Of a stretch of 64,000 nt of DNA, positions 3,330 to 18,160 are shown piece by piece. The notes under the pieces were generated by a model. It worked only from the letters and a program-made list of their open reading frames with translations, had not been told where the DNA came from and ran no database searches. The translations under genes and the position numbers were made by a program. The stretch comes from Candidatus Daviesbacteria bacterium RIFCSPHIGHO2_12_FULL_37_16 (GTDB lineage: Bacteria; Patescibacteriota; Microgenomatia; Daviesbacterales; UBA10151): NCBI GenBank assembly GCA_001776785.1, contig MFDF01000008.1, forward strand, positions 18,443 to 82,442, given 5' to 3'. Within the stretch, counting starts at the first letter, position 1; each line of letters starts with the position of its first letter.

Positions 3330-3896
3330 ATGAGCAAAATTTCAATTATTGCAGCTATGAGTAAAAACAGGGTTATTGGGACAAAAAATAAACTTCCATG
3401 GAATATCCCTGATGAATTAAAAAGGTTTAGGCAAATTACAGAAGGTCATCCAATAATCATGGGCAGAAAAACCCATGAATCCATTGGTAGGGTTTTACCC
3501 AATAGGCTAAACATTATTATCACAAGGGATGAAAATTATATTCGCAAGAATAATCTTGCTCATTATCAAACAAGATATAAAGTTGATGGTGTAATAATTG
3601 TCCATTCTTTGGAAGAAGCCATAAAAACTGCTAAGAATATATATCCTTCGGCTGCGCCCGCCTTTGGCGTGGCTGCGCCTCAGGATGACAAAAGTGAAAT
3701 CTTCATTATTGGGGGCGGGGAGATTTACAGACAGGCTTTACCCTTGGCAGATAAACTATATTTAACAGTAATAGATAAGAAATATGAAGGTGACACCTTC
3801 TTTCCAGACTATTCTGAGTTTAAAAAGGTGATAAAAGAAGAAAAAAAACAAACTGATGGTGGAGTTTCCTATACTCTTTTTGAACTTGAAAAATGA
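3330..3896 (+). CDS. folA: dihydrofolate reductase with two in-frame insertions
   Basis: IIAAMSKNRVIGTKNKLPWNIPDELKRF and IIMGRKTHESIG are classic DHFR motifs; extra loops NYIRKNNLAHYQTRYK and YPSAAPAFGVAAPQDDKS relative to E. coli DHFR. Confidence 0.85.
   Translation: MSKISIIAAMSKNRVIGTKNKLPWNIPDELKRFRQITEGHPIIMGRKTHESIGRVLPNRLNIIITRDENYIRKNNLAHYQTRYKVDGVIIVHSLEEAIKTAKNIYPSAAPAFGVAAPQDDKSEIFIIGGGEIYRQALPLADKLYLTVIDKKYEGDTFFPDYSEFKKVIKEEKKQTDGGVSYTLFELEK
3535..3580. repeat. short repeat, copy A (in frame within folA); 31-nt core near-identical to 17382-17415
   Basis: attatattcgcaagaataatcttgCtcattatc (A) vs atttatattcgcaagaataatcttgTtcattatc (B), followed by aaacaagatataa / aaaaaagatataa. 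Confidence 0.6.
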
Positions 3897-4264: not shown

Positions 4265-5209
4265 ATGGCAATTTCAACACCTTCAATGCAGGAGTTATTA
4301 ACAGCAGGTGTCCACTTTGGACACAAGATCTCCCGTGGCCACCCTAAGATGAAGCAATTTATCTATGGTGCAAGAGAAGGAGTGCATATTATTGATTTAG
4401 CCATGGCAGATGAAAAGTTAAAAGAAGCAGCAGAGGAAGCTTATAAGTTAGGAAAAGCTGGAAAAGTTTTATTAATTGTAGGTACAAAAAAACAAGCCCA
4501 GCAAAAAATAGAAAGCTTGGCTAAAGAAGCAAACTCCTTTTATTTAAACAAAAGGTGGGTTGGAGGGCTTTTGACAAATTTTGAAGAAATCAGAAAAAAT
4601 ATTAAAAAATTAAATGACTTAAAAATCCAGCAGGAAAAAGGAGAACTTTCAAGGTATACAAAAAAAGAACAGCTTTTAATCTCCAGAAAATTAACTAAAT
4701 TCATCTCAGAACTTGGAGGGATTGCAGATATGGATAAAATCCCTGATGCAATGTTTATTGTAGATGCAGTTTCAGATAAAACTGCAGTTGTAGAAGCCAA
4801 AAAAACAGGAGTAGAAGTTTTAGGCCTTTGTGACACAAATGCAGACCCATATTTTTTTGACTTCCCGGTCCCTGCAAATGATGATGGAATTAAATCAATA
4901 AACCTCATTTGTGACACAGTTTTGGGAGCATATGTAAAAGGCAAAAAATCCTCCTCCGCTCAAGCTACGGAGGACAAGGAAGCTGGAATAAAAGAAGAGT
5001 CGAAGGAGTCGGAAGGGACTGAAGAGCCGAAGGTCAAGAAAACTGGGGAAAAAGCAGGGGAGAAAAAATCTGAAAAAATAGAAGAAAAAACAGAAAATCC
5101 TGAAGAACCGGCACCAGCAGTTGATGCAGCAGTAGCCCATGAGACAGCTGCCCTAGAAGAAGAAGTAGAAAAAGTAGTTTTAGAGGAAAGTGAGAGGAAA
5201 ATAGAATAA
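4265..5209 (+). CDS. rpsB: 30S ribosomal protein S2 with acidic C-terminal extension
   Basis: MQELLTAGVHFGHKISRGHPKMKQFIYGAREGVHIIDL is the S2 signature; the Glu/Lys-rich tail contains a GC-rich hairpin repeat. Confidence 0.95.
   Translation: MAISTPSMQELLTAGVHFGHKISRGHPKMKQFIYGAREGVHIIDLAMADEKLKEAAEEAYKLGKAGKVLLIVGTKKQAQQKIESLAKEANSFYLNKRWVGGLLTNFEEIRKNIKKLNDLKIQQEKGELSRYTKKEQLLISRKLTKFISELGGIADMDKIPDAMFIVDAVSDKTAVVEAKKTGVEVLGLCDTNADPYFFDFPVPANDDGIKSINLICDTVLGAYVKGKKSSSAQATEDKEAGIKEESKESEGTEEPKVKKTGEKAGEKKSEKIEEKTENPEEPAPAVDAAVAHETAALEEEVEKVVLEESERKIE
4953..4975. repeat. GC-rich hairpin motif cctccgctcaagctacggaggac (copy in rpsB); related copy at 8388-8411
   Basis: TCCTCCG...CGGAGGA stem; 20/23 identical to cctccgctaaagctacggcaggac in the proS leader. 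Confidence 0.5.
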
Positions 5210-5319
5210 ACAAATTTTCAATTTAAAATTCGAAATTTGAAATGAATTTGAAATGTTTAAAAATTAAATCATTTAAAGTTTAGATTTCAATAAAAATTAA
5301 AAATTTTCAATTTAAAATT

Positions 5320-5775
5320 ATGAGCATATCAGTAGATGACATTAAAAAACTAAGAGAAGAGACAGGTGCAGGGATCGCAGACTGTAGAGAGGCTTTAGAA
5401 GAAGCAAAAGGAGATTTAGAAAAAGCAAAACAAGTTTTAAAGAAAAAGGGTTTGGATAAAGCAGGATCTAAATCTGACAGGGAAGTTAGGGCTGGGATTG
5501 TTGATGTTTACTCTCATGGGGGCAGGGTTGGGGTTATGGTTGAACTTTTGTGTGAAACAGACTTTGTTGCCCGCACTGATGATTTTAAAAATTTAGCCCA
5601 TGAGCTTTCACTGCAGATTGCCTCTATGAGACCTGACAGTGTATCAGATCTTTTAGAGCAGGAATATGTTAGGGACCCTTCCCTAAAAATAGATGATTTA
5701 ATAAAAGCTGCAGTTTTAAAACTTGGGGAAAATATCCAGGTTGGCAGGTTTGAAAGAATTGAGTTAGGGAAATAA
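5320..5775 (+). CDS. tsf: elongation factor Ts (short form)
   Basis: N-terminal UBA-like KKLREETGAGIADCREALEEAKGDLEKA and EF-Ts core; 151 aa as in CPR/short EF-Ts. Confidence 0.9.
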   Translation: MSISVDDIKKLREETGAGIADCREALEEAKGDLEKAKQVLKKKGLDKAGSKSDREVRAGIVDVYSHGGRVGVMVELLCETDFVARTDDFKNLAHELSLQIASMRPDSVSDLLEQEYVRDPSLKIDDLIKAAVLKLGENIQVGRFERIELGK

Positions 5776-5778
5776 TAA

Positions 5779-5888
5779 CCAAGAAACAAGATACAAGTGA
5801 GCAAAGCTCCTGCTAACGCAGTAACAAACAATTTTTTAATACTAAATATTTCAATTTGTTTGTATCTTGGTTATTGTATCTTGTAAAC
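5779..5888. repeat. inverted-repeat hairpin element (ccaagaaacaagatacaag ... tttgtttgtatcttgg ttattgtatc) directly after the tsf stop; probable terminator/REP-like element
   Basis: ~17/19 bp complementary arms; same arms recur at 19179-19245 and the right arm at 26071-26100. Confidence 0.6.
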
Positions 5889-5900
5889 TTAATTTAAGCT

Positions 5901-6455
5901 ATGGAACCTTTTATAACTGAAGTAAACCAAAAAATCTCCCAGGCAATTGAGCATTTGAAAAGAGAACTTTCAGGAATCAGGGCTGGGCGCGCAAACCCAA
6001 CACTATTGGAAGATATTCAAGTTTTGGCATATGGTTCACAGATGAAACTTATGGAAGTTGGTACTATCACAGCGCCCCAACCCTCACTTTTAACAGTCCA
6101 GGTTTGGGACCCGGGTATTATTAAAGATGTTGAAAAAGCAATTATGGAGGCGAACTTAGGTTTAAATCCATCAACAGAGGGTACTACCCTCAGGGTTCCA
6201 ATCCCGCCCTTATCTGAAGAAAGAAGGGTAGAATTTGTTAAACTTTCCCACCAAAAAGGGGAACAGTTCAAAGTTGAGATTAGACAAATCAGACAGGAGG
6301 CAAGGAGTGATTGGGACAGGCAAAAAGAGTCAGGAGAGATAGGTGAGGATGAGCTATTTAGGAGACAAAATATGCTCCAGGACCTGGTTGACAAATCCAC
6401 CAACTCAATTGACATAATGATTAAGCAAAAAGAAGAAGAATTAATGGAAATTTAA
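5901..6455 (+). CDS. frr: ribosome recycling factor
   Basis: LSGIRAGRANPTLLEDIQVLAYG...LNPSTEGTTLRVPIPPLSEERR is the RRF signature. Confidence 0.95.
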   Translation: MEPFITEVNQKISQAIEHLKRELSGIRAGRANPTLLEDIQVLAYGSQMKLMEVGTITAPQPSLLTVQVWDPGIIKDVEKAIMEANLGLNPSTEGTTLRVPIPPLSEERRVEFVKLSHQKGEQFKVEIRQIRQEARSDWDRQKESGEIGEDELFRRQNMLQDLVDKSTNSIDIMIKQKEEELMEI

Positions 6456-7585
6456 TGTTTATTTTAGTTTTTATAATTACTATCCTTATTTTAGTTGTTA
6501 TTCATGAACTTGGGCACTTTTTTGCTGCGAAAAAATTTAACATAAAAGTTTTAGAATTTGGGTTTGGGCTTCCACCCAGGGCCTGGGGCAAAAAAATTGG
6601 TGAAACAATCTGGAGTCTTAACTGGCTTCCTTTTGGAGGTTTTGTCAGGCTTTTGGGTGAAGATGAGGTGGATAAAGAAGTTTTAGACAATACCCGCTCT
6701 TTTGCAGCCCAGCCTGTCACTAAAAGGATGCTGGTTGTAGTAGCTGGGGTTGTAATGAATTTAATATTGGCCTGGCTTTTATTTTATATAGTTTTGGGAG
6801 CTCAAAACTTTAAAGCACAAGTCCCGCTTTTGTCTGACCATAAATTTGCAGGAGTCTCCCAAACTAATGAAAAAATTATCTTAATTGGGGATGTAGTTCC
6901 AAATTCTCCAGCCTCTCAGGCAGGTTTAAGCTCAGGGGAGCGGGTAATTGCAGTTGACAGTGAAGAAGTTTTAGATGCAAACCAGTTTATAGAAATTACA
7001 AAGCAAAAAGCAGGACAACCTATGCAGCTAACTGTTTCTGATATTGCAAAATCAGATCAAAGGATTTTAGAAATTACCCCTAGGGAAAATCCACCATCTG
7101 GAGAAGGCCCACTGGGGGTTTCACTTGGGACTTTTGAGATTGCTAATTTAGAATATAAAGAGCCATTGCAGATTGCACTGTCAGGGCCAATCCATTCCTA
7201 TAATTTAATAACTTATTCCTGGGAGATTTTAGCAAAAACTGTTTCATACTCTTTTGCTCAAAAAGATATAACCCCTGTTTCCCAAAATGTGGCAGGCCCA
7301 ATAGGGATTACCAATATAGTTAAAGAAATTTTAAGTGTCAAAAACCCTCTTATTCCATACTTAGACTTTATGGCAGCACTATCTTTGAACCTGGCCATAA
7401 TAAACATTCTTCCATTCCCTGGACTTGATGGAGGCAGGTTTTTCTTCCTGTTACTTGAGGCTATAACCAGGAAAAAAGCTCACCCAACAATAGAAAAATA
7501 TGTCCACACCATTGGCCTGGCCATTTTACTGGGATTAATATTTTTAGTAACTCTCTCAGACATCAAAAAACTCATCCCCCAATAG
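6455..7585 (+). CDS. rseP: RIP metalloprotease RseP (site-2 protease, M50 family) with PDZ domain
   Basis: HELGHFFAAKKF zinc motif, polytopic TM profile, central PDZ-like region, C-terminal LDGG motif. Confidence 0.85.
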   Translation: MFILVFIITILILVVIHELGHFFAAKKFNIKVLEFGFGLPPRAWGKKIGETIWSLNWLPFGGFVRLLGEDEVDKEVLDNTRSFAAQPVTKRMLVVVAGVVMNLILAWLLFYIVLGAQNFKAQVPLLSDHKFAGVSQTNEKIILIGDVVPNSPASQAGLSSGERVIAVDSEEVLDANQFIEITKQKAGQPMQLTVSDIAKSDQRILEITPRENPPSGEGPLGVSLGTFEIANLEYKEPLQIALSGPIHSYNLITYSWEILAKTVSYSFAQKDITPVSQNVAGPIGITNIVKEILSVKNPLIPYLDFMAALSLNLAIINILPFPGLDGGRFFFLLLEAITRKKAHPTIEKYVHTIGLAILLGLIFLVTLSDIKKLIPQ

Positions 7586-7654
7586 CTTACTATTCACATC
7601 TGTTTATAAGCTTCCACAGACTTAGAGTCCATAGATACTCATTTCTTATACAGC

Positions 7655-7688
7655 GTTACAATCAATAGCTATCGCAACTCATTGTAAC
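7655..7688. repeat. hairpin element gttacaat-caatagctatcgcaactc-attgtaac immediately upstream of the PaaX-like gene
   Basis: 8-bp perfect outer stem; loop aatagctatcgc shared with copies at 8253-8290 and 41146-41181. Confidence 0.55.
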
Positions 7689-7698
7689 AATAGTTGAA

Positions 7699-8268
7699 GT
7701 GGAGTATTCTGGTTCTATGGATAAGGTAACAACAAAAGATGTGCTTAAAGTTATTGCAGTAAGCGGAGTAGTCATAGGAAGTTTTGTAATTCCAGCATTG
7801 CCCATAGCTGCAGCATCTGCATTTAAGATATGGAAAAACTTTAACAGAAGGGATGTAGGCAGAATCCTAAAAAGACTTGAAAAACAACAAATGATTTCAG
7901 TCAAAGAAAATAATGGAAAAATATATATAGAAATTGCTGAAAAGGGTAAAAGAAGATTGTTAGAGTATGATTTTGAAAATATTGAGCTTAAATCTAAGAA
8001 AAGAGATGGAAAATGGAGATTAATAATTTTTGATATTCCAGAATATAAAAAAAGTGCAAGGGAAGTTTTCAGAAGAAAACTTAAACAGTTAGATATAATT
8101 CAACTCCAAAAAAGTGTATTTGCATCAGCTTTTTCCTGTAAAAATGAAATAGATTTCTTGTGTAACTTCTTAGAAATTTCAGATTATGTAACTTTGGTAT
8201 CTTTAAATAAAATAGAAAGAGGAGAACAACTTATCTTCAAAAAATATCATGATTGGGACAACGAATAG
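7699..8268 (+). CDS. membrane-anchored PaaX-like regulator family protein (winged helix + Cas2-like C-terminal domain)
   Basis: TM segment VIAVSGVVIGSFVIPALPIAAASAF; wing ILKRLEKQQMISVKENNGKIYIEIAEKGKRRL; C-terminal DGKWRLIIFDIPEYKKSAREVFRRKLKQLDIIQLQKSVF matches the PaaX_C / Cas2-like WhLvxfxIPE..R..R..LR..L...GF..LQ.SVW pattern; no CRISPR array nearby. Confidence 0.5.
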   Translation: MEYSGSMDKVTTKDVLKVIAVSGVVIGSFVIPALPIAAASAFKIWKNFNRRDVGRILKRLEKQQMISVKENNGKIYIEIAEKGKRRLLEYDFENIELKSKKRDGKWRLIIFDIPEYKKSAREVFRRKLKQLDIIQLQKSVFASAFSCKNEIDFLCNFLEISDYVTLVSLNKIERGEQLIFKKYHDWDNE

Positions 8269-8290
8269 CTATCGCTACTTAGTGTACCAA
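8253..8290. repeat. second copy of the aatagctatcgc-loop hairpin, overlapping the stop codon of the PaaX-like gene
   Basis: ttgggacaac-gaatagctatcgctactta-gtgtaccaa; loop nearly identical to 7661-7680. Confidence 0.5.
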
Positions 8291-8299
8291 AGCCATTTT

Positions 8300-8530
8300 A
8301 TATTTCAAACTTGAAACTTGAAATTTAATAACAGAATTTATTATAATCAATTCAAAGCTGTGAAAGAGTTTCCCGCTCTGGAGTCCGCCTCCGCTAAAGC
8401 TACGGCAGGACGAGCTGGGTGCGATAAGCATCCCCGGTTGAACCGTAAAAACTTAAATTGAGAAGTAATCAAGGTGGTACCACGAATGCACTTCGTCCTT
8501 GCAAGAGTGTAAGGAAGGAGTGCTTTTTTA
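8300..8530 (+). promoter_or_regulatory. putative T-box riboswitch leader of proS
   Basis: aatcaaGGTGGTACCacg resembles the T-box consensus AGGGUGGNACCGCG; followed by hairpin gcacttcgtccttgc...aaggaaggagtgc plus TTTTTT directly before the proS start; region is GC-rich relative to flanks. Confidence 0.5.
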
Positions 8531-10246
8531 ATGCTTTATTCAAAGTTATTTCCAAAAACAATTAAAGAAACACCTAAAGATGCTTCACTGACCTCCCATA
8601 AACTCCTTTACAGGGGTGGGTTTATCAGGGAATCAGCAGCAGGAAGATATTACTTGCTTCCACTTGGAATAAGGGTCCATCAAAAAATACAAAAAATCAT
8701 AAAAGAGGAGATGGATAAAACAGGAGCCCAGGAAATGGTAACTCCAGTTTTGCACCCTAAAGAACTCTGGAAAGAAACAAACAGAACTTCCTCAGTAGGT
8801 TTTGAGTTAATGAGCATAAAAGACAGAAATGAGATGGAGTTTGTTTTAGGTGGAACAGCAGAAGAAATGCTTGTAGATCTAGTTAGAAAATTCAAACTAA
8901 GTTATAGGGACCTGCCATTTAATCTTTATCAATTTTCCACAAAATTCAGGGATGAGTTAAGAGCTAGAGGAGGTCTTTTAAGGCTTAGAGAGTTCATGAT
9001 GAAAGATGCTTATTCTTTTGATGCAACAGAGGGTGATTTTAAAACTGAATATGAAAAAATGTCAAAGACTTATACAGAAATTTTTAATAGGATGGGTTTA
9101 AAAACAATTATTGTTGAATCTGACAATGGATACATTGGTGGGGAATACTGTCATGAGTTTGTAGTTGAATCAGAAGTTGGTGAAAGCAGATTTTTAATGA
9201 CAGAAGATGGTTCATATGCAGCACATGAAGATGTAGCTAAATTTAGCTTAGAAAGAAAAAATGTTTCTGAAAAAGAAAAACCTTTAGAAGAAGTAGAGGC
9301 AGTTAGAGGAACAACAATGGAGGATGGAGTTAAACTGCATAATCTGCCTCTTTGGCAGCAGATCAAAGATGTGTTATTTGTAGATGAAAAAGGCAGGTTT
9401 ATTTTAAGCATTATTAGGGGTGACTATGATGTTAATGAAACAAAGCTTTTACATCTAATTAAATCCTACCAATTAAGACATGCAACAGAAGAAGAGATAA
9501 GGGAAAAGATTCACTCTGAACCTGGATTTATTTCTCCTGTGGGAATTAAAGACATTATAGAAAAGGATGTTGAACTAATTATTGTTGCAGATGATTCACT
9601 AAGGACTGTTAAAAATGCTTATGGTGGTGCAAACAAAAAACACAGAGACCTTTTAAATATGAATATAGACAGAGACTATAAAGCAGACATAGAAGGGGAT
9701 ATTGCTTTAGCCAGGGAAGGGGACTTAGCAGCAGATGGGGGAGGAAAGTTAATAGCAAAAAAGGGAATTGAGGTTGGAAATATTTTCCAGCTTGGTTTTC
9801 ATTATTCTTCAAAGATGAAAGGTGCAAATTACATAGATAAAGATGGTAAAGAAAAACCTTATTATATGGGTTGTTATGGCATAGGCCTTGCCAGGACTTT
9901 GGCCACAGTAGTTGAAGTTTACAATGATGAAAAGGGCATTGTATGGCCAGAATCTGTAGCACCATATCAAGTTCACCTTGTTGGTTTAGACCTATCTGAC
10001 AAAGCTGTTTTGGAAAAAGCAGAACAAGTTTATAAAATTCTAACTTCTCATGGGATAGAAGTTTTATTTGATGACAGGATAGAGCCCTCTGCAGGTGAAA
10101 AGTTTGCAGATGCAGATTTGATAGGGATTCCTTATAGAGTAGTAATTTCTAAGAAAACCGGAGCAGAGATAGAAGTTAAAAAAAGGTCCCAAAAAGAGAC
10201 TGAATTTAAAAAATTAGAGGATCTGGTAAAATCTATCAAGGAATGA
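8531..10246 (+). CDS. proS: prolyl-tRNA synthetase
   Basis: Class II aaRS motifs (FRDELRARGGLLRLREFMMKDAYSFD), ProRS anticodon-binding C-terminus; 571 aa. Confidence 0.95.
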   Translation: MLYSKLFPKTIKETPKDASLTSHKLLYRGGFIRESAAGRYYLLPLGIRVHQKIQKIIKEEMDKTGAQEMVTPVLHPKELWKETNRTSSVGFELMSIKDRNEMEFVLGGTAEEMLVDLVRKFKLSYRDLPFNLYQFSTKFRDELRARGGLLRLREFMMKDAYSFDATEGDFKTEYEKMSKTYTEIFNRMGLKTIIVESDNGYIGGEYCHEFVVESEVGESRFLMTEDGSYAAHEDVAKFSLERKNVSEKEKPLEEVEAVRGTTMEDGVKLHNLPLWQQIKDVLFVDEKGRFILSIIRGDYDVNETKLLHLIKSYQLRHATEEEIREKIHSEPGFISPVGIKDIIEKDVELIIVADDSLRTVKNAYGGANKKHRDLLNMNIDRDYKADIEGDIALAREGDLAADGGGKLIAKKGIEVGNIFQLGFHYSSKMKGANYIDKDGKEKPYYMGCYGIGLARTLATVVEVYNDEKGIVWPESVAPYQVHLVGLDLSDKAVLEKAEQVYKILTSHGIEVLFDDRIEPSAGEKFADADLIGIPYRVVISKKTGAEIEVKKRSQKETEFKKLEDLVKSIKE

Positions 10247-10539
10247 AGGAAAATCCTTTTAGACTAAAAGAATTACAAACGTCAGATCTGCCCATATTTG
10301 AAACTGATAGAAGAGTGGCATATCGTGCAGAAGTCCCTGATAATCCAATTTGGGAATCTAACTCAATGCGTCTAATCAGGCTCTCAGCAATTTTTGGAAT
10401 TTACCCTCCAGCCACAAGTACTGAAGAATTTTTATACCATATTGCAGTCATGGGAGCTGAAACTGTGCAGCTTTTTAGGGATACCATGAGAGAAACTTTA
10501 GAGAAAATAGATTATGAACACCAAGTTAGAGGTAATTAA
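10243..10539 (+). CDS. hypothetical protein, translationally coupled to proS (ATGA overlap)
   Basis: ORF start overlaps the proS stop; no recognisable motif. Confidence 0.4.
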   Translation: MKENPFRLKELQTSDLPIFETDRRVAYRAEVPDNPIWESNSMRLIRLSAIFGIYPPATSTEEFLYHIAVMGAETVQLFRDTMRETLEKIDYEHQVRGN

Positions 10540-10697
10540 CAATCATTGATTTTAAAGCTATATCCTGGCTTAGATCAGCTTGTAAAAAGTATAAATCCCA
10601 GGGTGTCAAGCTAACACACGCCCGAGGTGGGTAATTATACAAGTCTGTAATTGATAATTTCTTACATTTTTGGTATTCTTACGCATTAGTAAAACAT

Positions 10698-11861
10698 ATG
10701 GCAGTTACTAAAAACATAATTAAACAGCCTAAAGCACAAGTTCAGGTACAAGTAACTATGCCCTGGGCAGATGTGGAGCCTAAATGGAATGAAACTCTGC
10801 AAAAAATGTCAGCTGAAGTTGAACTTGCAGGTTTTAGAAAAGGCACAGCCCCCCTTAACATGGTTGAACAGCAGCTTTCAACCAGGCTTTCAGATGAAGT
10901 TGTCAAAGTTATAATGCCACAAGCCTTAATTGAGGCCCTCCAGGGTACAAACATTGTCCCAATTGATTATCCTAAATATCAGTCCATCCAGTTTCAAAAA
11001 GGGACTGATTTGGTCTTCACAGCTCTTTTAACAGAGCGCCCGGCAGTCACTGTTGGTGAGTATAAAACTATAAAGGTTGCAAGGCCTGCACAAAAAACTA
11101 TCACAGATGAGGAAGTTGCAAAAGTTATAGATGATATCTTCAAAAGATGGAAGCTTAGACAACCTCAAACTCCAACTCCAGCTCAAAGTACACCAGTTCC
11201 TGCAGCGCCCCAATCTGGTGGAAGCTTAAGCTTTAATGCTCCAGCTGATACAACTCAGCCTGCCTCGCCTGACTCGCTTCGCGAAGCGAGCAGCGGTCAA
11301 GGCGGGCCTCAGGCAACTCCTGCTCAAGCAGCTGCTTCCCAAGCTCCAGATGATAACTTTGCTAAAGCAGTTGGGGCAAATTCACTGGAGGATCTAAAAA
11401 CTAAAATTAAAACAGACTTAGAAAATGAAGCAAAATATAATAATGAATTAGACTATGAAGAAGCAATCCTCCAGGAAGTAGAAAAAATAACCACAGTTGA
11501 TATCCCTGATATTTTAGTCTCAGATGAACTCTCAAGGATGATGCTTTCTTTACAAAGGAATGTGACAGACAGGGGACTTTTACTGGATGAATACCTAAAA
11601 TCCCAGGGCAAAACCCAGGAATCCTTAAAGAATGAGTGGAGGCCCCAGGCTGAAAAAAATGTCAGGATGGAGCTTGGGTTATCTGAGGTAGCCAGAGCTG
11701 AAAATGTAAATATCACAGACCAGGAACTCCAGGCTGAGATAGATAAAATCCAGGATAACAGGGTCAAATCCCAATTCAACTCCCAGGAACCAAGGTTGCA
11801 CCTAAGACACGCATTAAGACAAACAAAAACTCTTAACCTCCTAAAAACTTTAGTTAAGTAA
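10698..11861 (+). CDS. tig: trigger factor with a Pro/Ala/Gln-rich low-complexity insertion
   Basis: N-terminal ribosome-binding region with GFRKG(T) signature and PPIase/C-domain order; ~60-aa GC-rich insert 11160-11355. Confidence 0.85.
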   Translation: MAVTKNIIKQPKAQVQVQVTMPWADVEPKWNETLQKMSAEVELAGFRKGTAPLNMVEQQLSTRLSDEVVKVIMPQALIEALQGTNIVPIDYPKYQSIQFQKGTDLVFTALLTERPAVTVGEYKTIKVARPAQKTITDEEVAKVIDDIFKRWKLRQPQTPTPAQSTPVPAAPQSGGSLSFNAPADTTQPASPDSLREASSGQGGPQATPAQAAASQAPDDNFAKAVGANSLEDLKTKIKTDLENEAKYNNELDYEEAILQEVEKITTVDIPDILVSDELSRMMLSLQRNVTDRGLLLDEYLKSQGKTQESLKNEWRPQAEKNVRMELGLSEVARAENVNITDQELQAEIDKIQDNRVKSQFNSQEPRLHLRHALRQTKTLNLLKTLVK

Positions 11862-11862
11862 A

Positions 11863-12222
11863 ATGTTAACCCCTGAAGAATTTGCAGCATTTCCTAATCA
11901 GGAAGTTGATCATCCTGAAGCACAAACAATTCTTATGAATTACGCGATGATAATGGAAAAAAAGAAAGAAGGGTCAAAAGAACTTGCTGAGTTTCTAGGT
12001 ATGAAAGTCGCTTCATATACAGGATTTATTGGTAGAGCAATTAGTCCAGAGATCGATAGGCAAGAGGAATCGTTGCTAATGGTCTATTGGCCTCATGTTC
12101 ATAGAATTCAACAAGACCCTGCTTTATCAGAGTTATATAATCAATCACTTCAAGAAACATTTAGAAGGATGGGGGTTATCAAAAGAAAAGCCAGATTGAT
12201 GCATGAAGAAGGCCTCTACTAG
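11863..12222 (+). CDS. hypothetical protein, 2 nt downstream of tig (coupled)
   Basis: ORF only. Confidence 0.4.
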   Translation: MLTPEEFAAFPNQEVDHPEAQTILMNYAMIMEKKKEGSKELAEFLGMKVASYTGFIGRAISPEIDRQEESLLMVYWPHVHRIQQDPALSELYNQSLQETFRRMGVIKRKARLMHEEGLY

Positions 12223-12330
12223 ATTTTTGCTGAGCGAGCGCAGCGAGTCGAAGCATTTCCTATAACTTTTTCCATCTTTGCATTCAATGATATAAACAAA
12301 CCATTTCCACTTTTTCATTTTTGGCTGAGC

Positions 12331-12350
12331 CCTGCCTGCCGGCAGGCAGG
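12331..12350. repeat. perfect 20-nt GC palindrome cctgcctgccggcaggcagg in a GC-rich intergenic patch
   Basis: Self-complementary; flanked by duplicated frame tttt(g)gctgagc...gtcgaagc at 12228-12260 and 12318-12362. Confidence 0.6.
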
Positions 12351-12400
12351 TTGTCGAAGCCCTACCTCCATTTGACTTTTAAATATTAAACTCATAATAT

Positions 12401-12901
12401 TTGACTATGGCAGTTGAGAGTCCAGTTGAAAATCTTAGTAGTATAGTTAATCTTAGGAGCAAAAGAGGGAAGTTTTTTATGGCAGGTATGGCAATATTAT
12501 TTGCTACTTTGGGAGATTTGGTGATATCTTTAGAAAGTTCCCACTTAAGGGATGTGAATAGTCAGATTTCCTACCCTGTCTCAGATACTGAAGCAATGGA
12601 AGCTAGAAGTTATAAATCTTCTTTAGATACTCATATTTTGGATGCAGCATATTCCAAAGACTATGGAAGAATTACATTAATTGTGGAAGATCCCAAAACT
12701 ACCAAAACTACTGTTATTTTAGATCAGCTAAAAACTACAGATGAGCAAAGAAAAGCTAGAATAGCAGAAATTGAAGCTTCTCAGAAGAAAGCTATTGGAG
12801 ATTTGAGAATTCACAGAGCAGATTTAGATCTTGCTGCAGCTGGTCTTGGAACCCTTTTATGCTTAGGTGCTATGCTTGCCCCAATATCTAAACCAGCTTA
12901 A
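12401..12901 (+). CDS. hypothetical membrane protein
   Basis: TM segments near both ends; true start may be the internal Met (MAGMAILF). Confidence 0.35.
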   Translation: MTMAVESPVENLSSIVNLRSKRGKFFMAGMAILFATLGDLVISLESSHLRDVNSQISYPVSDTEAMEARSYKSSLDTHILDAAYSKDYGRITLIVEDPKTTKTTVILDQLKTTDEQRKARIAEIEASQKKAIGDLRIHRADLDLAAAGLGTLLCLGAMLAPISKPA

Positions 12902-13016
12902 TTTTTCCCCAAAATTGCCCAAAAAAGCCCTTAGTGGTACAATAGAGGGCAGTAAACCCAAATAAAGGAGGTGTTTTTTGCAATTTACCAATTCTTTGGT
13001 AGATTGAATATAAATT

Positions 13017-13217
13017 ATGTCTATTATAGTTAGAGCAACAGGCAATGATAATTCTGATGCTGTAATCAGGAAATTTCAAAAAAGAGTAGTCCTGGAAAAA
13101 GTTGTCCAGGAATACAGGGATATAATGTTTCATAAAAAGAACTCTGAAAAAAGAAAAGAGATGTTAGCAGAAAGAAGAAGAAAAATCAGAAGAGCACAAA
13201 GACTTGCCAACCAATAA
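13017..13217 (+). CDS. rpsU: 30S ribosomal protein S21
   Basis: IIVRATGNDNSDAVIRKFQKR...EKRKEMLAERRRKIRR resembles S21 (VKVRENEPFDVALRRFKR...). Confidence 0.8.
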   Translation: MSIIVRATGNDNSDAVIRKFQKRVVLEKVVQEYRDIMFHKKNSEKRKEMLAERRRKIRRAQRLANQ

Positions 13218-13304
13218 TTAAAGCTGATTAATGATTGAAGATTAAGGATTAAAGAGAAAAAGAAAAAATCATTAATCATTCTTCATTAATCTTTAATCAT
13301 CTCA

Positions 13305-13742
13305 ATGGAAACTAAAATTAAAGAGGATCTGAAACAAGCCCAGCTTAACCGCGATGAGATTCGCCTCTCCACTTTGCGTCTTCTTTTATCAGAAATAAAT
13401 AATTCTAAGATTCAAAAAGGCTCTGATCTAACAGATGATGAGATAACCTCTGTTGTCCAAAAAGAAGCAAAAAAAAGAAGGGAATCAGTTGAATCTTTCA
13501 AAAAAGGAGGGAGGGAAGACCTGGCCCAAAAAGAAGAGTCTGAACTTAAAATACTGGAAGCTTACATGCCTGCAGGTCTCTCAAATGAGGAGTTGACTAA
13601 ATTAGTTGAAGACTCTATAAATGAGTTAGGGGCAAATTCTTTGGCTGACATGGGCAAAGTAATGAGCTCGGTAATGGCAAAAGTTGCAGGCAGGGCAGAT
13701 GGTAGTATTGTAAGCAGTCTGGTTAAAGAAAAATTATCATGA
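13305..13742 (+). CDS. yqeY: GatB/YqeY domain protein
   Basis: LKQAQLNRDEIRLSTLRLLLSEI...KRRESVESFKKGGREDLAQKEESELKILEAYMP...DMGKVMSSVMAKVAGRADGSIVSSLVKEKL matches YqeY end to end. Confidence 0.85.
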   Translation: METKIKEDLKQAQLNRDEIRLSTLRLLLSEINNSKIQKGSDLTDDEITSVVQKEAKKRRESVESFKKGGREDLAQKEESELKILEAYMPAGLSNEELTKLVEDSINELGANSLADMGKVMSSVMAKVAGRADGSIVSSLVKEKLS

Positions 13743-14155
13743 TAAATATTATTGTCACTTCAGACCCAAGATACCAGGTAAATAAACTTGCTATCCAGGC
13801 CTCTGTGCTGGATATCCTAAAACGCAACAATGTTACAGGCAATATAGAAATTGGGGTCAATATTGTAGGGGATCGGAAGATGCATGAGGTTAACAAAAAG
13901 TATAGGGGAATTGATTCAACCACAAATATCCTGTCTTTTGCCCTGGAAGACCCTGTTTCTGCAAGTGGGCTGCAGCATGTTAGAAACCTGGGTTTTGTAA
14001 AATCACCTGATAAGATATTAAAACTTGGTGATATCCTGATTTCCTGGCCTGAACTTCAAAAAGATGCAGCTGCAGCAGGTGTTTCAACAGAGCAGCAGGC
14101 AAGGTATTTGGTAGAGCATGGGACTAAGCATTTGCTTGGGATTCACCACGACTAA
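13739..14155 (+). CDS. ybeY: endoribonuclease YbeY (rRNA maturation factor)
   Basis: TNILSFALEDP and HGTKHLLGIHHD (H-x3-H-x5-H) motifs. Confidence 0.85.
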   Translation: MINIIVTSDPRYQVNKLAIQASVLDILKRNNVTGNIEIGVNIVGDRKMHEVNKKYRGIDSTTNILSFALEDPVSASGLQHVRNLGFVKSPDKILKLGDILISWPELQKDAAAAGVSTEQQARYLVEHGTKHLLGIHHD

Positions 14156-14223
14156 GAAGTTATTACAAAAACCTTTAACTTATCTTGTAAGTTTTATATT
14201 TTTTTCATATATTATCTAAACCA

Positions 14224-15750
14224 ATGGTTTACTATCGTAAGTATCGGCCACAGACTCTTGATGAAATTATTGGCCAGGAGCATATTAAAAATGCCCTAAA
14301 AAAAGCCCATGAATCCAATAGGCTTTCCCATGCTTATCTTTTTGCAGGACCCAAAGGCTCTGGTAAAACCTCAACAGCCAGGATTTTAGCAAAAATGATA
14401 AATTGTGAAGTTGGAGGTCCCTGCAATAAATGCTCTACATGTCTCTCTATAACTGATGGAAGCAACCTTGACCTGATAGAAATAGATGCAGCTTCAAACA
14501 GGGGAATTGATGATATAAGGGAGCTTAGGGAAAAGATAAAGCTTGCCCCCACTTCTTCTAAGAAAAAAGTTTATATTATAGATGAAGTCCATATGCTCAC
14601 AACTGAAGCTTTTAATGCACTTTTAAAAACTCTGGAAGAACCACCTTCCCATGTTTTATTCATCTTAGCAACCACAGACCCACACAAAATCCCCCAAACT
14701 ATTTTATCCAGGGTTCAAAGGTTTGACTTCCAGGCTGCTAAAGAAGAAGAAATAATTGAATATTTAAAAAATGTAATAAAGATAGAAAAGTTAAAAATTA
14801 GTGATGAAGCCCTTAATTTGATTGCTAAAAAATCAGAGGGAAGTTTCAGGGATGGATTAAAAATTCTTGACCAGCTTGCCAGTTCAGGTAATGAAATAAC
14901 TCTTGAGGATGTTGAAAATATTTATAAATCAGGGAAATCTGAAGATTCAATTAAGCTTTTAAATTTTATTGCAGATGCTGATACAAAATCTGCTTTAGAA
15001 TTTGTCACAGAACTTTCAGAAAGAGGAATAAGTTTAAAAGAGTTTATAAATCAAACATTACATACACTAAGACTGCTTCTTTTAATAAAACATGACACTA
15101 AAAAAGATGAAAGTCTTTCTGGTCTTTCTCAAAAACTATCAAGTCCTCAAATTGTAAAAATTGTAAATTCGCTTGGTATCGCTTTAGAAAAAATGAAGTT
15201 TGTTTCAATTCCAACCCTGCCTCTTGAAATTGCAGTAGTGGAGAGCTGCCAGGAACAAGAGGTACCACGGGGGGAAAGGGTATCACAGGTACCACAGGGA
15301 GAAGAAAATAATATTGGAAATAAGCCCCGTGATACTCGTGATACTTCAAAACCCCGTGATATCTCCAATGAGCTGATTTCTCCAGCAATTCCTGCCCCCA
15401 TCTCAGATGCCCAGGAAATTATTATTATCAAAGACAAATGGGCCTATATTTTAGAAACTATAAAACCCTACAACTTTTCTTTGGAAGCACTTTTAAAACA
15501 GTCCAAAATAGTAAGTTTTGAATCAGAAACATTAATTTTAGAAGTACCTTATTCATTCCATAAGAGAATTTTAGAAGCTCCAAAATCAAGAGAACTTTTA
15601 GAGTCAGTTTTAGCAGAAGTTTTGGGAAAAAGCGCTAAAGTCTCAACAGTTTTGGGAACCAGGCCTGTTAGGGTAGAGGAATTAGCCAATGTAGAAGTAG
15701 CAGCTGATGATGAGATTATAAAAATTGCCTCAGAGATTTTTAATTCTTAA
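14224..15750 (+). CDS. dnaX: DNA polymerase III subunit gamma/tau
   Basis: YRPQTLDEIIGQEH, Walker A GPKGSGKTS, zinc module CNKCSTC, SRVQRFDF sensor; middle section holds a tandem PRDTRDTSKPRD repeat. Confidence 0.9.
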   Translation: MVYYRKYRPQTLDEIIGQEHIKNALKKAHESNRLSHAYLFAGPKGSGKTSTARILAKMINCEVGGPCNKCSTCLSITDGSNLDLIEIDAASNRGIDDIRELREKIKLAPTSSKKKVYIIDEVHMLTTEAFNALLKTLEEPPSHVLFILATTDPHKIPQTILSRVQRFDFQAAKEEEIIEYLKNVIKIEKLKISDEALNLIAKKSEGSFRDGLKILDQLASSGNEITLEDVENIYKSGKSEDSIKLLNFIADADTKSALEFVTELSERGISLKEFINQTLHTLRLLLLIKHDTKKDESLSGLSQKLSSPQIVKIVNSLGIALEKMKFVSIPTLPLEIAVVESCQEQEVPRGERVSQVPQGEENNIGNKPRDTRDTSKPRDISNELISPAIPAPISDAQEIIIIKDKWAYILETIKPYNFSLEALLKQSKIVSFESETLILEVPYSFHKRILEAPKSRELLESVLAEVLGKSAKVSTVLGTRPVRVEELANVEVAADDEIIKIASEIFNS

Positions 15751-17433: not shown

Positions 17434-17715
17434 ATGTCTATGGGAATAATGGACAGTATGAAACAGCTTGGGGATCTCAAAAAGATGAGAGACCAGGCTA
17501 TGGAAGTTCAAAAAAAGCTAGCTCTAATAAAAATTACAGTAGAACACAAAGGTGTAACTATTGTCATGACTGGTGATCAAAAAGTAGTCTCTATCTCAGG
17601 GGAAAATGATCTTGATAAAGTCACAGAAGCTGTTAATGAAGCATTAAAACAATCCCAAAAAGTTGCTGCAGAAGAGATGAGATCCTTAATGGGCGGTCAA
17701 ATCCCCGGAATGTAA
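17434..17715 (+). CDS. ybaB: nucleoid-associated protein YbaB/EbfC
   Basis: MKQLGDLKKMRDQAMEVQKKL...VTIVMTGDQKVVSISGEN; ATG at 17434 preferred over the TTG at 17404. Confidence 0.85.
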   Translation: MSMGIMDSMKQLGDLKKMRDQAMEVQKKLALIKITVEHKGVTIVMTGDQKVVSISGENDLDKVTEAVNEALKQSQKVAAEEMRSLMGGQIPGM

Positions 17716-17721
17716 CCAGAA

Positions 17722-18123: not shown

Positions 18124-18160
18124 ATTCTTTAATCAGTAATCTTCCATCTTTAATCTTAAA

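What the first reader, a model, noticed from the sequence alone, without database searches (positions are those of the whole stretch)
4950..15420. GC-rich palindromic mini-elements scattered in coding and non-coding DNA of an AT-rich genome
Short GC-rich, self-complementary sequences appear in several places. (1) The rpsB C-terminal extension contains cctccgctcaagctacggaggac at 4953-4975, and the proS leader contains a 20/23-identical copy at 8388-8411. (2) The tig insertion region has gactcgcttcgcgaagcgagc (about 11270-11290), whose central 12 nt gcttcgcgaagc is a perfect palindrome. (3) The 12228-12362 intergenic region has two copies of the frame gctgagc...gtcgaagc, one of which carries the perfect 20-nt palindrome cctgcctgccggcaggcagg. 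(4) dnaX 15240-15420 holds tandem ccccgtgatactcgtgatacttcaaaaccccgtgatatctcc. When these fall inside genes they are in frame and encode Ala/Pro/Ser/Gln-rich linkers in housekeeping proteins S2, trigger factor and DnaX. This suggests a family of small GC-rich repetitive or possibly mobile hairpin elements tolerated in frame.
Basis: seen in the sequence. Interest (0 to 1): 0.5.

Follow-up and report, generated by a model that had tools for sequence, protein, structure and literature searches.

The report
Palindromic repeat elements inserted inside genes
Several unrelated families of small hairpin-forming repeats sit in frame inside essential genes (S2, DHFR, trigger factor, DnaX, topoisomerase I) and inside a T-box riboswitch of a tiny groundwater CPR bacterium; this is the Rickettsia-style "palindromic element in genes" phenomenon, apparently not yet described for this phylum.

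Summary
CpG is extremely depleted in this genome (o/e 0.17), yet 32 of 356 CpGs lie in 373 nt of these elements.

They are not one family. I see at least four kinds:
- **The "A" hairpin.** It occurs in the rpsB tail and in T-box Stem I. Relatives carry it in tig and at another T-box site.
- **A 20-nt palindrome.** It is nested in one hairpin here and lies in frame in ybaB of a relative.
- **The dnaX "tandem".** It is the right arm of a ~101-nt inverted repeat built from 9-nt units. Two more in-frame copies lie in topA, with one arm read in a different frame.

[quoted passage not shown] The window's own such gene has an ORF-less miniature. Orthologues lack the inserts.

Best reading: selfish or neutral palindromic repeats, of the REP / Rickettsia palindromic element (RPE) kind and the rRNA intervening-sequence (IVS) kind, tolerated in permissive linkers. 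Ongoing mobility and the transposition mechanism are not shown. This is a new member or variant of known kinds.

The parts
3639..3689 (-). In-frame GC-rich hairpin in folA (FolA residues 104-117, IYPSAAPAFGVAAP, plus QDD). On the minus strand it reads tTGTC-ATCCTGAG-GCGCAGC[CACGCCAAAGGCGG]GCGCAGC-CGAAGGAT. That is a (C/T)GTC-tagged REP-like hairpin with a nested small hairpin or duplication.
   Evidence: It is absent from all 7 orthologous folA genes. It folds at -24.8 kcal/mol, z -2.9. It matches the GTCATCCTGAG..CGAAGGAT elements of L011, L067, L001 and L003. At least 155 copies occur in IMG/VR. FolA residues 73-119 correspond to only 17 residues of DHFR 3jw3.
3531..3578 (+). AT-rich in-frame insert in folA (residues 71-83, IRKNNLAHYQTRY), containing the small hairpin GCAAGA-ATAA-TCTTGC. 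A second copy lies in the glyA-ybaB spacer at 17384-17415.
   Evidence: 94-97% identical over 32-35 nt. Absent from all folA orthologues. Coordinates.
4947..4979 (-). 'A' hairpin in the C-terminal extension of ribosomal protein S2 (residues 229-237, SSSAQATED). The minus strand reads TGTC-CTCCG-TAGCTTGAG-CGGAG.
   Evidence: 22 of 24 identical to the T-box copy. 29 of 33 identical to a copy in the tig linker of another species, L006 641-673, in the same reading frame. It lies just after the Pfam S2 domain, which ends at residue 226. DNA-fold z-score -3.7 to -4.3.
8351..8530 (+). T-box leader of proS. It has an ultrashort Stem I with the specifier CCC (Pro) in the terminal loop UUUCCCG, the T-box sequence GGUGGUACCACG, and a terminator followed by a U-run.
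   Evidence: Rfam RF00230 at E 5e-6 and 39.7 bits, below the gathering score of 93. The leader is conserved upstream of proS in relatives.
8383..8413 (-). 'A' hairpin inserted in the 3' strand of T-box Stem I. The minus strand reads CGTC-CTGCCG-TAGCTTTAG-CGGAGG.
   Evidence: The orthologous leaders of L011, L016 and L022 run ...GCTCCRGA|GCTGG... with nothing at this point. L010 and L002 carry other GC hairpins at the same point. L022 carries an A-like hairpin at a different point, just before the antiterminator.
11258..11315 (.). 'B' composite hairpin in the trigger-factor linker (residues 189-206, ASPDSLREASSGQGGPQA). It contains the 18-nt perfect palindrome 11273-11290 and 7 CpGs.
   Evidence: The 18-aa insert is absent from all 25 aligned tig orthologues that cover the linker. 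It folds at -29.6 kcal/mol, z -3.05. It is the only copy in the window. The half-site CTCGCTTCGCGA recurs in tandem GATGAC-type repeats of L024.
12229..12254 (+). 'C1' intergenic hairpin with the frame GCTGAG-CG...-CGAAGC, whose helix contains a tandem G.A/A.G. It is a degenerate relative of the CTGAGCG..CGAAG REP-like hairpins, lacking both the tag and the AT pair.
   Evidence: It lies 6 nt after the orf119 stop codon.
12324..12360 (+). 'C2' has the same frame but carries the nested 20-nt perfect palindrome CCTGCCTGCCGGCAGGCAGG (12331-12350).
   Evidence: The same palindrome is nested in a GTCATTGCGAG...GCAATC hairpin in L024. It also lies in frame in ybaB of L026 (LPAGQAG), where the window's ybaB has nothing.
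15259..15365 (+). 'D' element in the DnaX linker (residues 347-380). It is a ~101-nt inverted repeat. Each arm holds four 9-nt units (GTAYCACRG / CYGTGRTAC) around a ~27-nt loop.
   Evidence: Fold result. Two further copies, 82-88% identical, lie in topA of the same genome. The left arm is translated in a different frame in DnaX than in TopA, restored by a 1-nt indel in the loop. No such cluster exists in the 27 syntenic Daviesbacteria loci. It falls in the hypervariable DnaX linker.
13212..13305 (.). AT-rich ORF-less hairpin in the rpsU-yqeY spacer. Its arms are arrays of GATTAAWGA units. It is the miniature counterpart of the inverted arrays flanking the IVP gene at 17712-18168.
   Evidence: Its two arms align with the two flanks of the IVP gene, with 20 invariant columns (family D18). 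Fold result.
17712..18168 (-). [quoted passage not shown]
   Evidence: Pfam E 4e-37. Flanks shown. All 7 PF05635 gene contexts inspected in the fetched loci are flanked by inverted arrays of short lineage-specific units, although the match found for the window's own gene was only a 7-nt seed. The L087 gene carries D-type units.

Best explanation
The window comes from a Daviesbacteria-like (CPR / Microgenomates) genome. It carries copies of several unrelated families of small palindromic repeat elements, which I read as selfish or neutral DNA.

**Families**
1. REP-like hairpins of the (C/T)GTC-tagged kind. The folA insert belongs here, and C1/C2 are degenerate relatives.
2. The 'A' hairpin, with core CCG-N-AGC-TTTA-GCG-N-AGG and a CGTC or TGTC head. 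It is probably a variant of family 1.
3. Very small perfect palindromes that nest inside other hairpins (CCTGCCTGCCGGCAGGCAGG). The tig composite may belong here.
4. The 'D' element, about 101 nt, built from two inverted arrays of four 9-nt units.

**How I think they arose and persist**
- Copies arose by insertion or duplication at the DNA level.
- Selection left in genes only those copies that keep the reading frame, contain no stop codon, and fall in permissive places. These places are the S2 C-terminal tail, two DHFR surface segments, the trigger-factor linker that replaces the PPIase domain, the DnaX linker and two TopA hot spots.
- There they are simply translated into Ala/Pro/Ser/Gly/Thr/Arg/Asp-rich peptides.
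- In the proS T-box the hairpin sits at a point of Stem I that tolerates an extra arm.

**Origin of D**
[quoted passage not shown] This is the architecture of rRNA intervening sequences (IVS).

**Shown versus inferred**
- Shown: repetition, hairpin potential, in-frame status, empty orthologous sites, and cross-species copies in other contexts.
- Inferred: insertion as the process, neutrality, and the transposition machinery. The machinery is unknown; I propose it acts in trans on single-stranded hairpins, as proposed for REPs.
- Inferred: the CpG richness of the elements in a genome with CpG o/e 0.17 implies the copies are young or are being homogenised.
For: **Repetition beyond chance.**

**A family.**
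- rpsB versus T-box: 22 of 24.
- rpsB versus the L006 tig copy: 29 of 33, in the same frame.
- A-like sequence in the tig linkers of L008, L009 and L019.
- T-box leaders: empty at the site in L011, L016 and L022. L022 has an A-like copy at another site. L010 carries the same core in the opposite orientation at the window's site.

**REP-like family.**
- The folA insert equals the GTCATCCTGAG..CGAAGGAT hairpins of L001, L003, L011 and L067.
- At least 155 copies occur in 120 IMG/VR loci, against roughly 3 expected by my own estimate.
- L003 shows typical intergenic inverted pairs.
- Canonical TGTC-ATTCCCGC-GAAG-GCGGGAAT-CCA lies in frame in TopA of a relative.
- The same frame and peptide appears in the QRPTase-like gene of L067 (DPSASPQDD) and in the DnaX linkers of L016 and L020.
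- The definition of the kind, and the precedent for in-frame copies enriched in replication and repair genes, come from PMC3733652.

**Nested palindrome.** The window's C2, L024 and L026 ybaB.

**D element.**
- Three in-frame copies in dnaX and topA, with a frame switch between copies.
- The TopA inserts are residues 99-135 and 423-456 relative to E. coli TopA.
- The closest TopA orthologue, P0002, and seven others are empty at site 2.
- D-type arrays occur in many other low-GC groundwater contigs. Some are intergenic with A-run and T-run flanks. Others are in frame in RadA, SecA, MreC, a GT2 glycosyltransferase and a phosphoesterase.
- D-type arrays flank the PF05635 gene of L087.
- The window's own PF05635 gene and its ORF-less miniature share arms.

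**Insert status in other genes.**
Against: - No presence/absence polymorphism was found among 18 near-identical population contigs. Nothing shows current mobility.
- No target-site duplication could be defined.
- No transposase is associated with any family. The window encodes only an rve integrase, and no Y1/HUH enzyme was seen.
- The tig element B has no second copy in about 760 kb of related sequence.
- C1 and C2 lack the tag and the AT pair of the REP-like kind.
- The C1 match to L027 folA is largely native coding sequence plus a local 9-nt duplication. This shows such sequences can also arise locally.
- The L002, L010 and window T-box hairpins sit at the same point. They could therefore be an inherited structural arm rather than independent insertions.
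- Only about 84 kb of this genome was seen, so copy number per genome is unknown.
Confidence: 0.7

Rival explanations
1. Host-selected structures. On this view the hairpins are kept because they do something for the cell. They might act as mRNA pause or RNase III sites tuning expression of dnaX, topA, tig or folA, as terminators or stabilisers in spacers, or as a functional extra arm of the proS T-box.
For: Intergenic D copies in other contigs have A-run and T-run flanks like bidirectional intrinsic terminators (L046, L051, L052, L056, L067, L072). Three lineages have a hairpin at the same T-box position. Stems are strong, at -25 to -45 kcal/mol. IVS stems are RNase III substrates in other bacteria (PMC4990558).
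Against: Orthologous genes and leaders work without the hairpins. Different, unrelated elements occupy the same permissive sites in different lineages, which points to tolerance rather than a specific function. Intragenic copies lack the U-run. No Rfam family matches.
Confidence: 0.15
2. Local de novo generation rather than transposition. On this view template switching, quasi-palindrome correction and slippage create and perfect palindromes and 9-nt arrays in place, in low-complexity linkers.
For: The palindromes are perfect with no loop (18 and 20 nt). The folA insert contains an internal duplication, GCGCAGC twice. L027 folA shows a 9-nt tandem duplication that creates a C1-like sequence inside native coding DNA. 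The D arms are tandem 9-mers with degenerate units.
Against: Near-identical sequences of 24-100 nt occur in unrelated genes, in non-coding leaders and in different species. One arm of D is read in two frames. Arms are shared between a gene-bearing cassette and its ORF-less miniatures. Local processes may reshape copies but do not explain their dispersal.
Confidence: 0.1
3. Ordinary lineage-specific low-complexity linker sequence, whose similarities are chance or codon-usage effects.
For: All intragenic copies lie in regions that are hypervariable and compositionally biased in every relative. Part of the C1 to L027 similarity is native coding sequence.
Against: Shuffle controls give 0 expected matches. 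The copies in the T-box leader and in spacers are non-coding. CpG clustering is 3 observed against 0.01 expected. The D copies are 82-88% identical over about 100 nt in unrelated proteins.
Confidence: 0.04
4. The inserts are removed from expression. They would be excised from the mRNA, or bypassed by the ribosome as with the byp elements of Magnusiomyces mitochondria or T4 gene 60. A related idea is that the dnaX hairpin drives programmed frameshifting to make a gamma subunit.
For: Stable hairpins lie inside ORFs. dnaX is the classical frameshift gene (established knowledge for E. coli).
Against: Every intragenic copy examined keeps the frame and lacks stop codons. This would be unnecessary if the copies were skipped. 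The only A-run upstream of the dnaX hairpin (15188-15193) is not an X XXY YYZ heptamer in the zero frame, and it lies about 70 nt from the stem (read).
Confidence: 0.01

Closest known systems
CGTC-tagged REPs (Di Nocera, De Gregorio & Rocco 2013, PMC3733652). The group includes Rickettsia RPE-4 and RPE-6 and Neisseria dRS3.
   Same: They share an unpaired (C/T)GTC head and a stem whose first two positions are A and T. Stems are 8-9 bp and loops 4-5 nt. Copies form head-to-head pairs in spacers. Occasional in-frame intragenic copies encode 10-30 residues, often in replication or repair genes. No dedicated transposase is known. The window's folA insert fits this, as do many hairpins in relatives, including a textbook TGTC-ATTCCCGC-GAAG-GCGGGAAT-CCA copy in a relative's TopA.
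   Different: The host phylum (CPR) is not among the phyla listed in that paper's text as read here. The commonest subfamily here (ATCCTGAG-CGNAG-CGAAGGAT) has a tandem G.A/A.G inside the stem and a CTC tail rather than CCA. The window's copy has its loop expanded by a nested hairpin. C1, C2 and A lack the AT pair.
Rickettsia palindromic elements, RPE-1 type (Ogata et al. 2000; from my own knowledge, and cited in PMC3733652)
   Same: They are ~100-150-nt palindromic repeats inserted in frame in many unrelated, often essential genes. They are translated, located on protein surfaces, and their mechanism is unknown. The D element behaves the same way: three in-frame copies in dnaX and topA, and more in RadA, SecA and MreC of other CPR contigs.
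   Different: There is no sequence relationship. D is built from tandem 9-nt units. It also occurs as terminator-like intergenic hairpins and as the flanks of a PF05635 gene.
23S rRNA intervening sequences carrying an S23p ORF (Coxiella, Leptospira; PMC4990558)
   Same: A small four-helix-bundle protein gene (PF05635) is bounded by terminal inverted repeats that form a long stem. All 7 such gene contexts inspected in the fetched loci have this layout.
   Different: Here the cassettes lie between protein-coding genes, not in 23S rRNA. The arms are arrays of 7-9-nt units. ORF-less miniatures exist, and some of these sit in frame inside genes. RNase III excision has not been tested.
MITEs and REPINs (for example Correia, Nezha, REPIN/RAYT; PMC10969869, PMC3116915)
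   Same: They are short, non-autonomous, structured repeats with inverted termini, dispersed through the genome.
   Different: No target-site duplication, no cognate transposase and no RAYT could be identified. Several of the elements here are only 20-30 nt long.
GC clusters of yeast mitochondrial DNA (from my own knowledge)
   Same: They are GC-rich palindromic mini-elements in a very AT-rich genome. They sometimes lie in frame in coding sequence and often nest inside one another.
   Different: They are organellar and unrelated in sequence. This comparison rests on memory only.

Membership tests
CGTC-tagged REP (PMC3733652) | Unpaired CGTC head (TGTC or CCTC allowed) at one end | tested here: met
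   The folA insert has TGTC on the minus strand at 3690-3687. The A copies have CGTC (T-box) and TGTC (rpsB) on the minus strand. In IMG/VR copies the base before GTC is mostly T. C1 and C2 have no tag.
CGTC-tagged REP (PMC3733652) | Stem of 8-9 bp whose first two positions are complementary A and T | tested here: met
   The folA insert reads AT-CCTGAG...CGAAGG-AT, with 8 positions including a tandem G.A/A.G. The feature is not met by A (stem CTSCCG), C1, C2 or B.
CGTC-tagged REP (PMC3733652) | Loop of 4-5 nt | tested here: not met
   Canonical relatives have 5-nt loops (CGCAG, CGAAG, CGGAG). The window's folA copy has about 33 nt between the stem halves because of a nested hairpin or duplication. 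The A copies have 9-nt loops.
CGTC-tagged REP (PMC3733652) | Short unpaired tail, mostly CCA | tested here: not met
   The tail is CTC/CTN in the ATCCTGAG subfamily and ATA in the folA copy. CCA tails are seen in L056 and in the P0053 TopA copy.
CGTC-tagged REP (PMC3733652) | Many copies per genome, often as head-to-head pairs in spacers | tested here: inconclusive
   Pairs are seen in the relative L003. The 64-kb window has only one tagged copy plus two degenerate ones. The whole genome was not available.
Rickettsia palindromic elements (RPE) | Sequence membership in RPE-1 to RPE-8 families | not tested
   No RPE consensus sequences were available in the tools. No Rfam hit was found. The behaviour (in frame, palindromic, multi-copy) matches, but family membership is not claimed.
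23S rRNA intervening sequence (IVS) with S23p ORF | PF05635 ORF bounded by terminal inverted repeats that form a long stem | tested here: met
   The window cassette 17712-18168 and 6 other PF05635 gene contexts show this layout. The D element and 13212-13305 have the arms but no ORF.
23S rRNA intervening sequence (IVS) with S23p ORF | Located in a 23S rRNA helix (9, 25 or 45) | tested here: not met
   All cassettes and miniatures seen lie between or inside protein-coding genes. No rRNA is present in the window.
23S rRNA intervening sequence (IVS) with S23p ORF | Excision of the stem-loop by RNase III | not testable with these tools
MITE | Terminal inverted repeats and small size (about 50-500 bp) | tested here: met
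   D has termini GAGTACCACG...CGTGGTACTC and is about 101 nt long.
MITE | Target-site duplication and a cognate autonomous element encoding a transposase | tested here: inconclusive
   The flanks AGAG/CTCT extend the palindrome rather than forming direct repeats. The only gene found between matching arms is PF05635, which is not a known transposase.
REP/RAYT (REPIN) system | GTAG head and an associated Y1 (IS200/IS605-like) transposase gene flanked by the repeats | tested here: not met
   The heads are (C/T)GTC, not GTAG. No Y1_Tnp domain appears among the genes annotated across the window and its flanks. The rest of the genome was not seen.
T-box leader (RF00230) | T-box sequence with antiterminator and terminator, upstream of an aaRS gene, with a matching specifier codon | tested here: met
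   GGUGGUACCACG, a terminator with U6, and CCC in the Stem I loop lie upstream of proS. The Rfam score of 39.7 bits is below the gathering score of 93, consistent with a reduced Stem I.

The most novel reading that the evidence does not exclude
Genes for the 23S-rRNA-intervening-sequence protein (S23p / PF05635), bounded by inverted arrays of 7-9-nt units, may be a distinct class of mobile cassette in CPR bacteria.

On this reading the cassettes spawn ORF-less miniature hairpins. These colonise spacers, where they look like terminators, and also essential genes, where they are read through in frame. That would tie the long-unexplained rRNA 'intervening sequences' to an RPE-like genome-wide phenomenon. 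It would also hint that the four-helix-bundle protein takes part in their propagation.
Probability: 0.3. Interest if true: 0.7.

Novelty: new variant of a known kind. Interest (0 to 1): 0.55.

Why it matters
In-frame palindromic repeats are a textbook curiosity of Rickettsia and a few other bacteria. Finding the same behaviour in a CPR genome of about 1 Mb shows the phenomenon is not a quirk of one lineage. Here at least seven in-frame copies sit in five housekeeping genes within about 84 kb, and one more sits inside a riboswitch.

**Practical consequences**
- These inserts inflate and diversify 'linker' regions of marker proteins used for CPR phylogeny.
- They generate spurious small ORFs.
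- They can break assemblies.

**Questions it makes testable**
- The contrast between CpG-rich elements and a genome with CpG o/e 0.17 offers an internal clock for how fast such elements arrive and decay.
- The link between the 9-mer-array hairpins and S23p/IVS-type cassettes gives a concrete, testable lead on where at least one such family comes from. That question is still open for RPEs and rRNA intervening sequences.

Tried and rejected
**Searches that found nothing**
- Rfam, at gathering thresholds over the whole window and at E-value thresholds over 3000-16000. Only a sub-threshold T-box hit appeared, plus spurious miRNA hits on the AT-rich hairpin.
- A protein-database search with the 44-residue D peptide found no candidates.
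- An IMG/VR scan for the D 19-mer gave 0 hits.
- Literature searches for palindromic elements, MITEs or REPs in CPR or Patescibacteria, and for PF05635 cassettes as mobile elements, found nothing relevant.

**Looking for filled and empty alleles**
- All 18 contigs of the same population carry every element they cover.
- No closer relative than about 71-77% TopA identity exists in the protein database.

**Ideas considered and dropped**
- The D 9-mers as a DNA-uptake-type signal. Single units are not visibly over-represented outside the clusters: 24 in 64 kb, near my own rough expectation of about 23.
- The D units as DnaA boxes or PaaX operators. They resemble TTATCCACA and TGATTCGYGWT only with indels, and that comparison rests on memory.
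- A programmed dnaX frameshift. There is no slippery heptamer in frame near the stem.
- The C1 match to L027 folA as evidence of mobility. It was downgraded because that stretch is native coding sequence in three species.
- A possible CpG-decayed A copy in the window's own tig (about 11315-11345). The alignment was too weak to claim.

Full report
**Context**

The window is 36% GC and encodes folA, rpsB, tsf, frr, rseP, a PaaX-like gene, proS, tig, rpsU, yqeY, ybaB... and dnaX in a conserved order. Pfam confirms the gene identities. The order matches 27 related loci from Candidatus Daviesbacteria-type MAGs (Tig 56-67% identical, plus one partial hit). The same DNA, at least 98.9% identical and mostly at least 99.9%, occurs in many Rifle groundwater assemblies. 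One source names the bin 'Woesebacteria GW2011_GWB1_38_5b'.

CpG is extremely depleted here, at o/e 0.17. The related loci show 0.33-1.05.

**Checking the observation**

All four items are present.

- **rpsB and T-box.** The core CCTCCGCTNAAGCTACGG occurs exactly twice, at 4953 and 8388, against 0 in shuffles. With one gap the two copies match at 22 of 24.
- **tig.** The palindrome is 18 nt and perfect (11273-11290), inside a -29.6 kcal/mol hairpin.
- **The intergenic frames.** GCTGAGC..GTCGAAGC occurs twice against 0 expected.
- **dnaX.** The 'tandem' is one arm of a -45 kcal/mol inverted repeat.
- **CpG clustering.** Clusters of at least 5 CpG per 40 nt number 3, against 0.01 in shuffles.
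- **CpG share.** The elements hold 32 of the 356 CpGs in 373 nt.

**Are they insertions?**

- **Trigger factor.** The 18-residue stretch encoded by the hairpin is absent from every aligned orthologue.
- **FolA.** It has two window-specific inserts, of 13 and 14 residues. Against solved DHFR structures, residues 73-119 correspond to 17 residues.
- **DnaX.** The element lies in the hypervariable linker, and none of 27 syntenic loci has such a cluster.
- **proS leader.** It is a T-box (Rfam E 5e-6) with a very short Stem I and a CCC specifier.
- **The T-box insertion point.** The leaders of L011, L016 and L022 run straight through the point where the window has 31 extra bases. L002 and L010 have other GC hairpins at that point. 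L022 has an A-like hairpin elsewhere in the leader.

**Families**

*REP-like hairpins.*
- On its minus strand the folA insert reads TGTC-ATCCTGAG-...-CGAAGGAT.
- The same hairpin with a 5-7-nt loop occurs in L001, L003, L011 and L067.
- It also occurs at least 155 times in 120 IMG/VR loci of widely varying GC.
- Variants with other stems occur in the relatives (GTCATTGCGAG...GCAATC, GTCATTCCCGC-GGAA-GCGGGAATCCA). They typically form inverted pairs in spacers.
- This matches the published definition of CGTC-tagged REPs. That group includes Rickettsia RPE-4 and RPE-6 and is known to occur in frame in genes, often replication and repair genes (PMC3733652).
- C1 and C2 share the CTGAGCG..CGAAG core but lack the tag and the AT pair.

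*The A hairpin.* It carries a CGTC or TGTC head on its minus strand and a conserved core.
- It recurs, in the same reading frame, in the tig linker of L006 (29 of 33 to the rpsB copy).
- Looser matches occur in the tig linkers of L008, L009 and L019.
- A-like sequence also occurs in RecR of L027.

*The nested palindrome.* The 20-nt palindrome of C2 is found nested in a tagged hairpin in L024. It also lies in frame in YbaB of L026, where it adds LPAGQAG that the window's YbaB lacks.

*The tig element B.* It has no second copy in the material seen.

**The D element**

- A megablast of population contigs against the window revealed a second copy 4 kb upstream of the window, in topA. topA in fact holds two copies.
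- The three copies are 82-88% identical over about 100 nt, with termini GAGTACCACG...CGTGGTACTC.
- Each arm consists of four 9-nt units.
- The left arm is read as TTGGTGITGTTG in TopA but as VPRGERVSQVPQ in DnaX. A 1-nt loop indel restores the shared GNKPRDTRDTS frame. The conservation is therefore at nucleotide level.
- Against E. coli TopA the copies are clean insertions at residues 99-135 and 423-456.
- Among 28 Daviesbacteria TopA orthologues these two positions are hypervariable. Eight, including the closest (P0002), are empty at site 2.
- The other TopA orthologues carry other elements there:
  - a head-to-head pair of canonical TGTC-tagged REPs (P0053);
  - a D variant with GTATCAA units (P0008, site 1);
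  - another unit-array hairpin (P0008, site 2).
- A metagenome scan for a D 19-mer found D-type arrays in many low-GC groundwater contigs.
- Some of those copies are intergenic with A-run and T-run flanks. Others are in frame in RadA, SecA, MreC, a glycosyltransferase and a phosphoesterase.

**Origin of D**

- The window has its own PF05635 gene (17722-18123, minus strand). It is flanked by inverted arrays of an AT-rich unit, GATTAAWGA.
- An ORF-less hairpin with the same arms sits at 13212-13305.
- All seven PF05635 gene contexts inspected in the fetched loci are bounded by inverted arrays of short, lineage-specific units.
- This is the architecture described for the S23p-encoding intervening sequences of 23S rRNA (PMC4990558). 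Here, however, the cassettes lie outside rRNA.
- I therefore read D as an ORF-less miniature of such a cassette.

**How it most likely works**

*Shown:*
- repeated, hairpin-forming elements defined at nucleotide level;
- empty orthologous sites;
- copies in unrelated contexts and species;
- strict preservation of reading frame inside genes.

*Inferred:*
- The copies arose by insertion.
- Only in-frame, stop-free copies in permissive segments survived, and these are translated.
- Their CpG richness in a strongly CpG-depleted genome means they are young or are being homogenised.

*Unknown:* the machinery. No transposase is associated with any family, no target duplication is visible, and no polymorphism was found within the population. 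By analogy with REPs I favour action in trans on single-stranded hairpins. This is the weakest step of the argument.

**Rivals**

- **Host-selected RNA functions.** These could be terminators, RNase III or pause sites, or a useful T-box arm. They cannot be excluded for individual copies. They do not explain why different elements occupy the same permissive sites, or why orthologues do without them.
- **Local palindrome genesis.** Template switching probably reshapes copies, as the folA internal duplication and the L027 example suggest. It does not explain their dispersal.
- **Chance or ordinary linker sequence.** This is excluded for all elements except possibly the tig one.
- **Skipping or frameshifting.** This is made unlikely by universal frame preservation and by the lack of a slippery site.

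**Novelty and verdict**

Intragenic REPs and RPEs are known, and the tagged hairpin family is cosmopolitan. The full-text library searched held no description of them in CPR bacteria, of a copy inside a T-box, or of PF05635 cassettes with ORF-less miniatures that enter genes.

I rate this a new variant of a known kind, of moderate interest.

Noticed in passing
whole window: CpG is extremely depleted, at o/e 0.17 (GpC 1.13). This is much lower than in 27 related loci (0.33-1.05). Further CpG clusters lie at 4132-4159, 20503-20528 and 63556-63581, the last being CGCGA..TCGCG. The cause is unknown; it could be CpG methylation or restriction avoidance.
   Followed up: partly
window 7658-7690, 8258-8290, 41145-41182: A PaaX_M-like gene (7699-8268) is bracketed by 33-nt direct repeats (ACAAYSAATAGCTATCGCWACT...). 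A third, palindromic copy lies at about 41150. In most relatives the gene is absent from this position between rseP and proS, so it may be an inserted cassette.
   Followed up: no
window 5772-5880, 19187-19228, 26072-26098; also 5210-5320 and 8290-8330: Further AT-rich spacer hairpins are built from short tandem units. Some use CAAGAWACAAG units; for example the tsf-frr spacer folds at -31 kcal/mol, z -4.65. Others use TTGAAAY units. Most intergenic spacers in this region seem to hold such 'unit-array' hairpins.
   Followed up: partly
window 3531-3571 and 17384-17415: A 32-35-nt AT-rich repeat is shared between an in-frame folA insert and the glyA-ybaB spacer. The spacer copy looks like a TTGTTC-17-TATAAT promoter preceded by a small hairpin.
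   Followed up: partly
window 20180-20233: A 54-nt in-frame indel polymorphism lies in an unknown ORF (19691-20719, minus strand). One population assembly (L038, GCA_000991895.1) lacks these bases.
   Followed up: no
L043 13470 (corresponds to window 3529): Assembly LBUZ01000004.1 diverges from the window exactly at the edge of the AT-rich folA insert and continues into unrelated genes. This is either an assembly chimera or a rearrangement at a repeat.
   Followed up: partly
window 10698-11861 and relatives: Trigger factor in this clade has only the N- and C-terminal domains. The PPIase domain is replaced by a low-complexity linker of very variable length (proteins of 335-397 residues).
   Followed up: partly
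TopA orthologues P0001-P0096 (alignment A5); L212, L213: Daviesbacteria TopA has at least three hypervariable sites filled with different in-frame repeat elements in different lineages. Peptides such as DSRLRGND, VILGRSP..ARMTG and PRSGEAI..ARND are translations of tagged REP hairpins. One protein starts with a REP-derived N-terminal extension (EILRYTQNDK).
   Followed up: partly
window 44065-44088, 39432-39455, 29109-29139, 53109-53134: Other perfect GC-rich hairpins are present, including a 24-nt perfect palindrome (AGCTCCTGGGTGCACCCAGGAGCT) in a spacer. They were not assigned to any family.
   Followed up: no
window 59391-60449: An rve-type (DDE) integrase gene is the only transposase-like gene seen in the window.
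   Followed up: no
L022 13849-13912; L016 and L020 dnaX linkers: The DnaX linkers of relatives hold other repeats. L022 has tandem GGTCAG-type units. L016 and L020 have CTCAGGATGACAA remnants (peptides PDQDDK, AQDDK, SLIVQNDK). The linker is therefore a general landing zone for such elements.
   Followed up: partly
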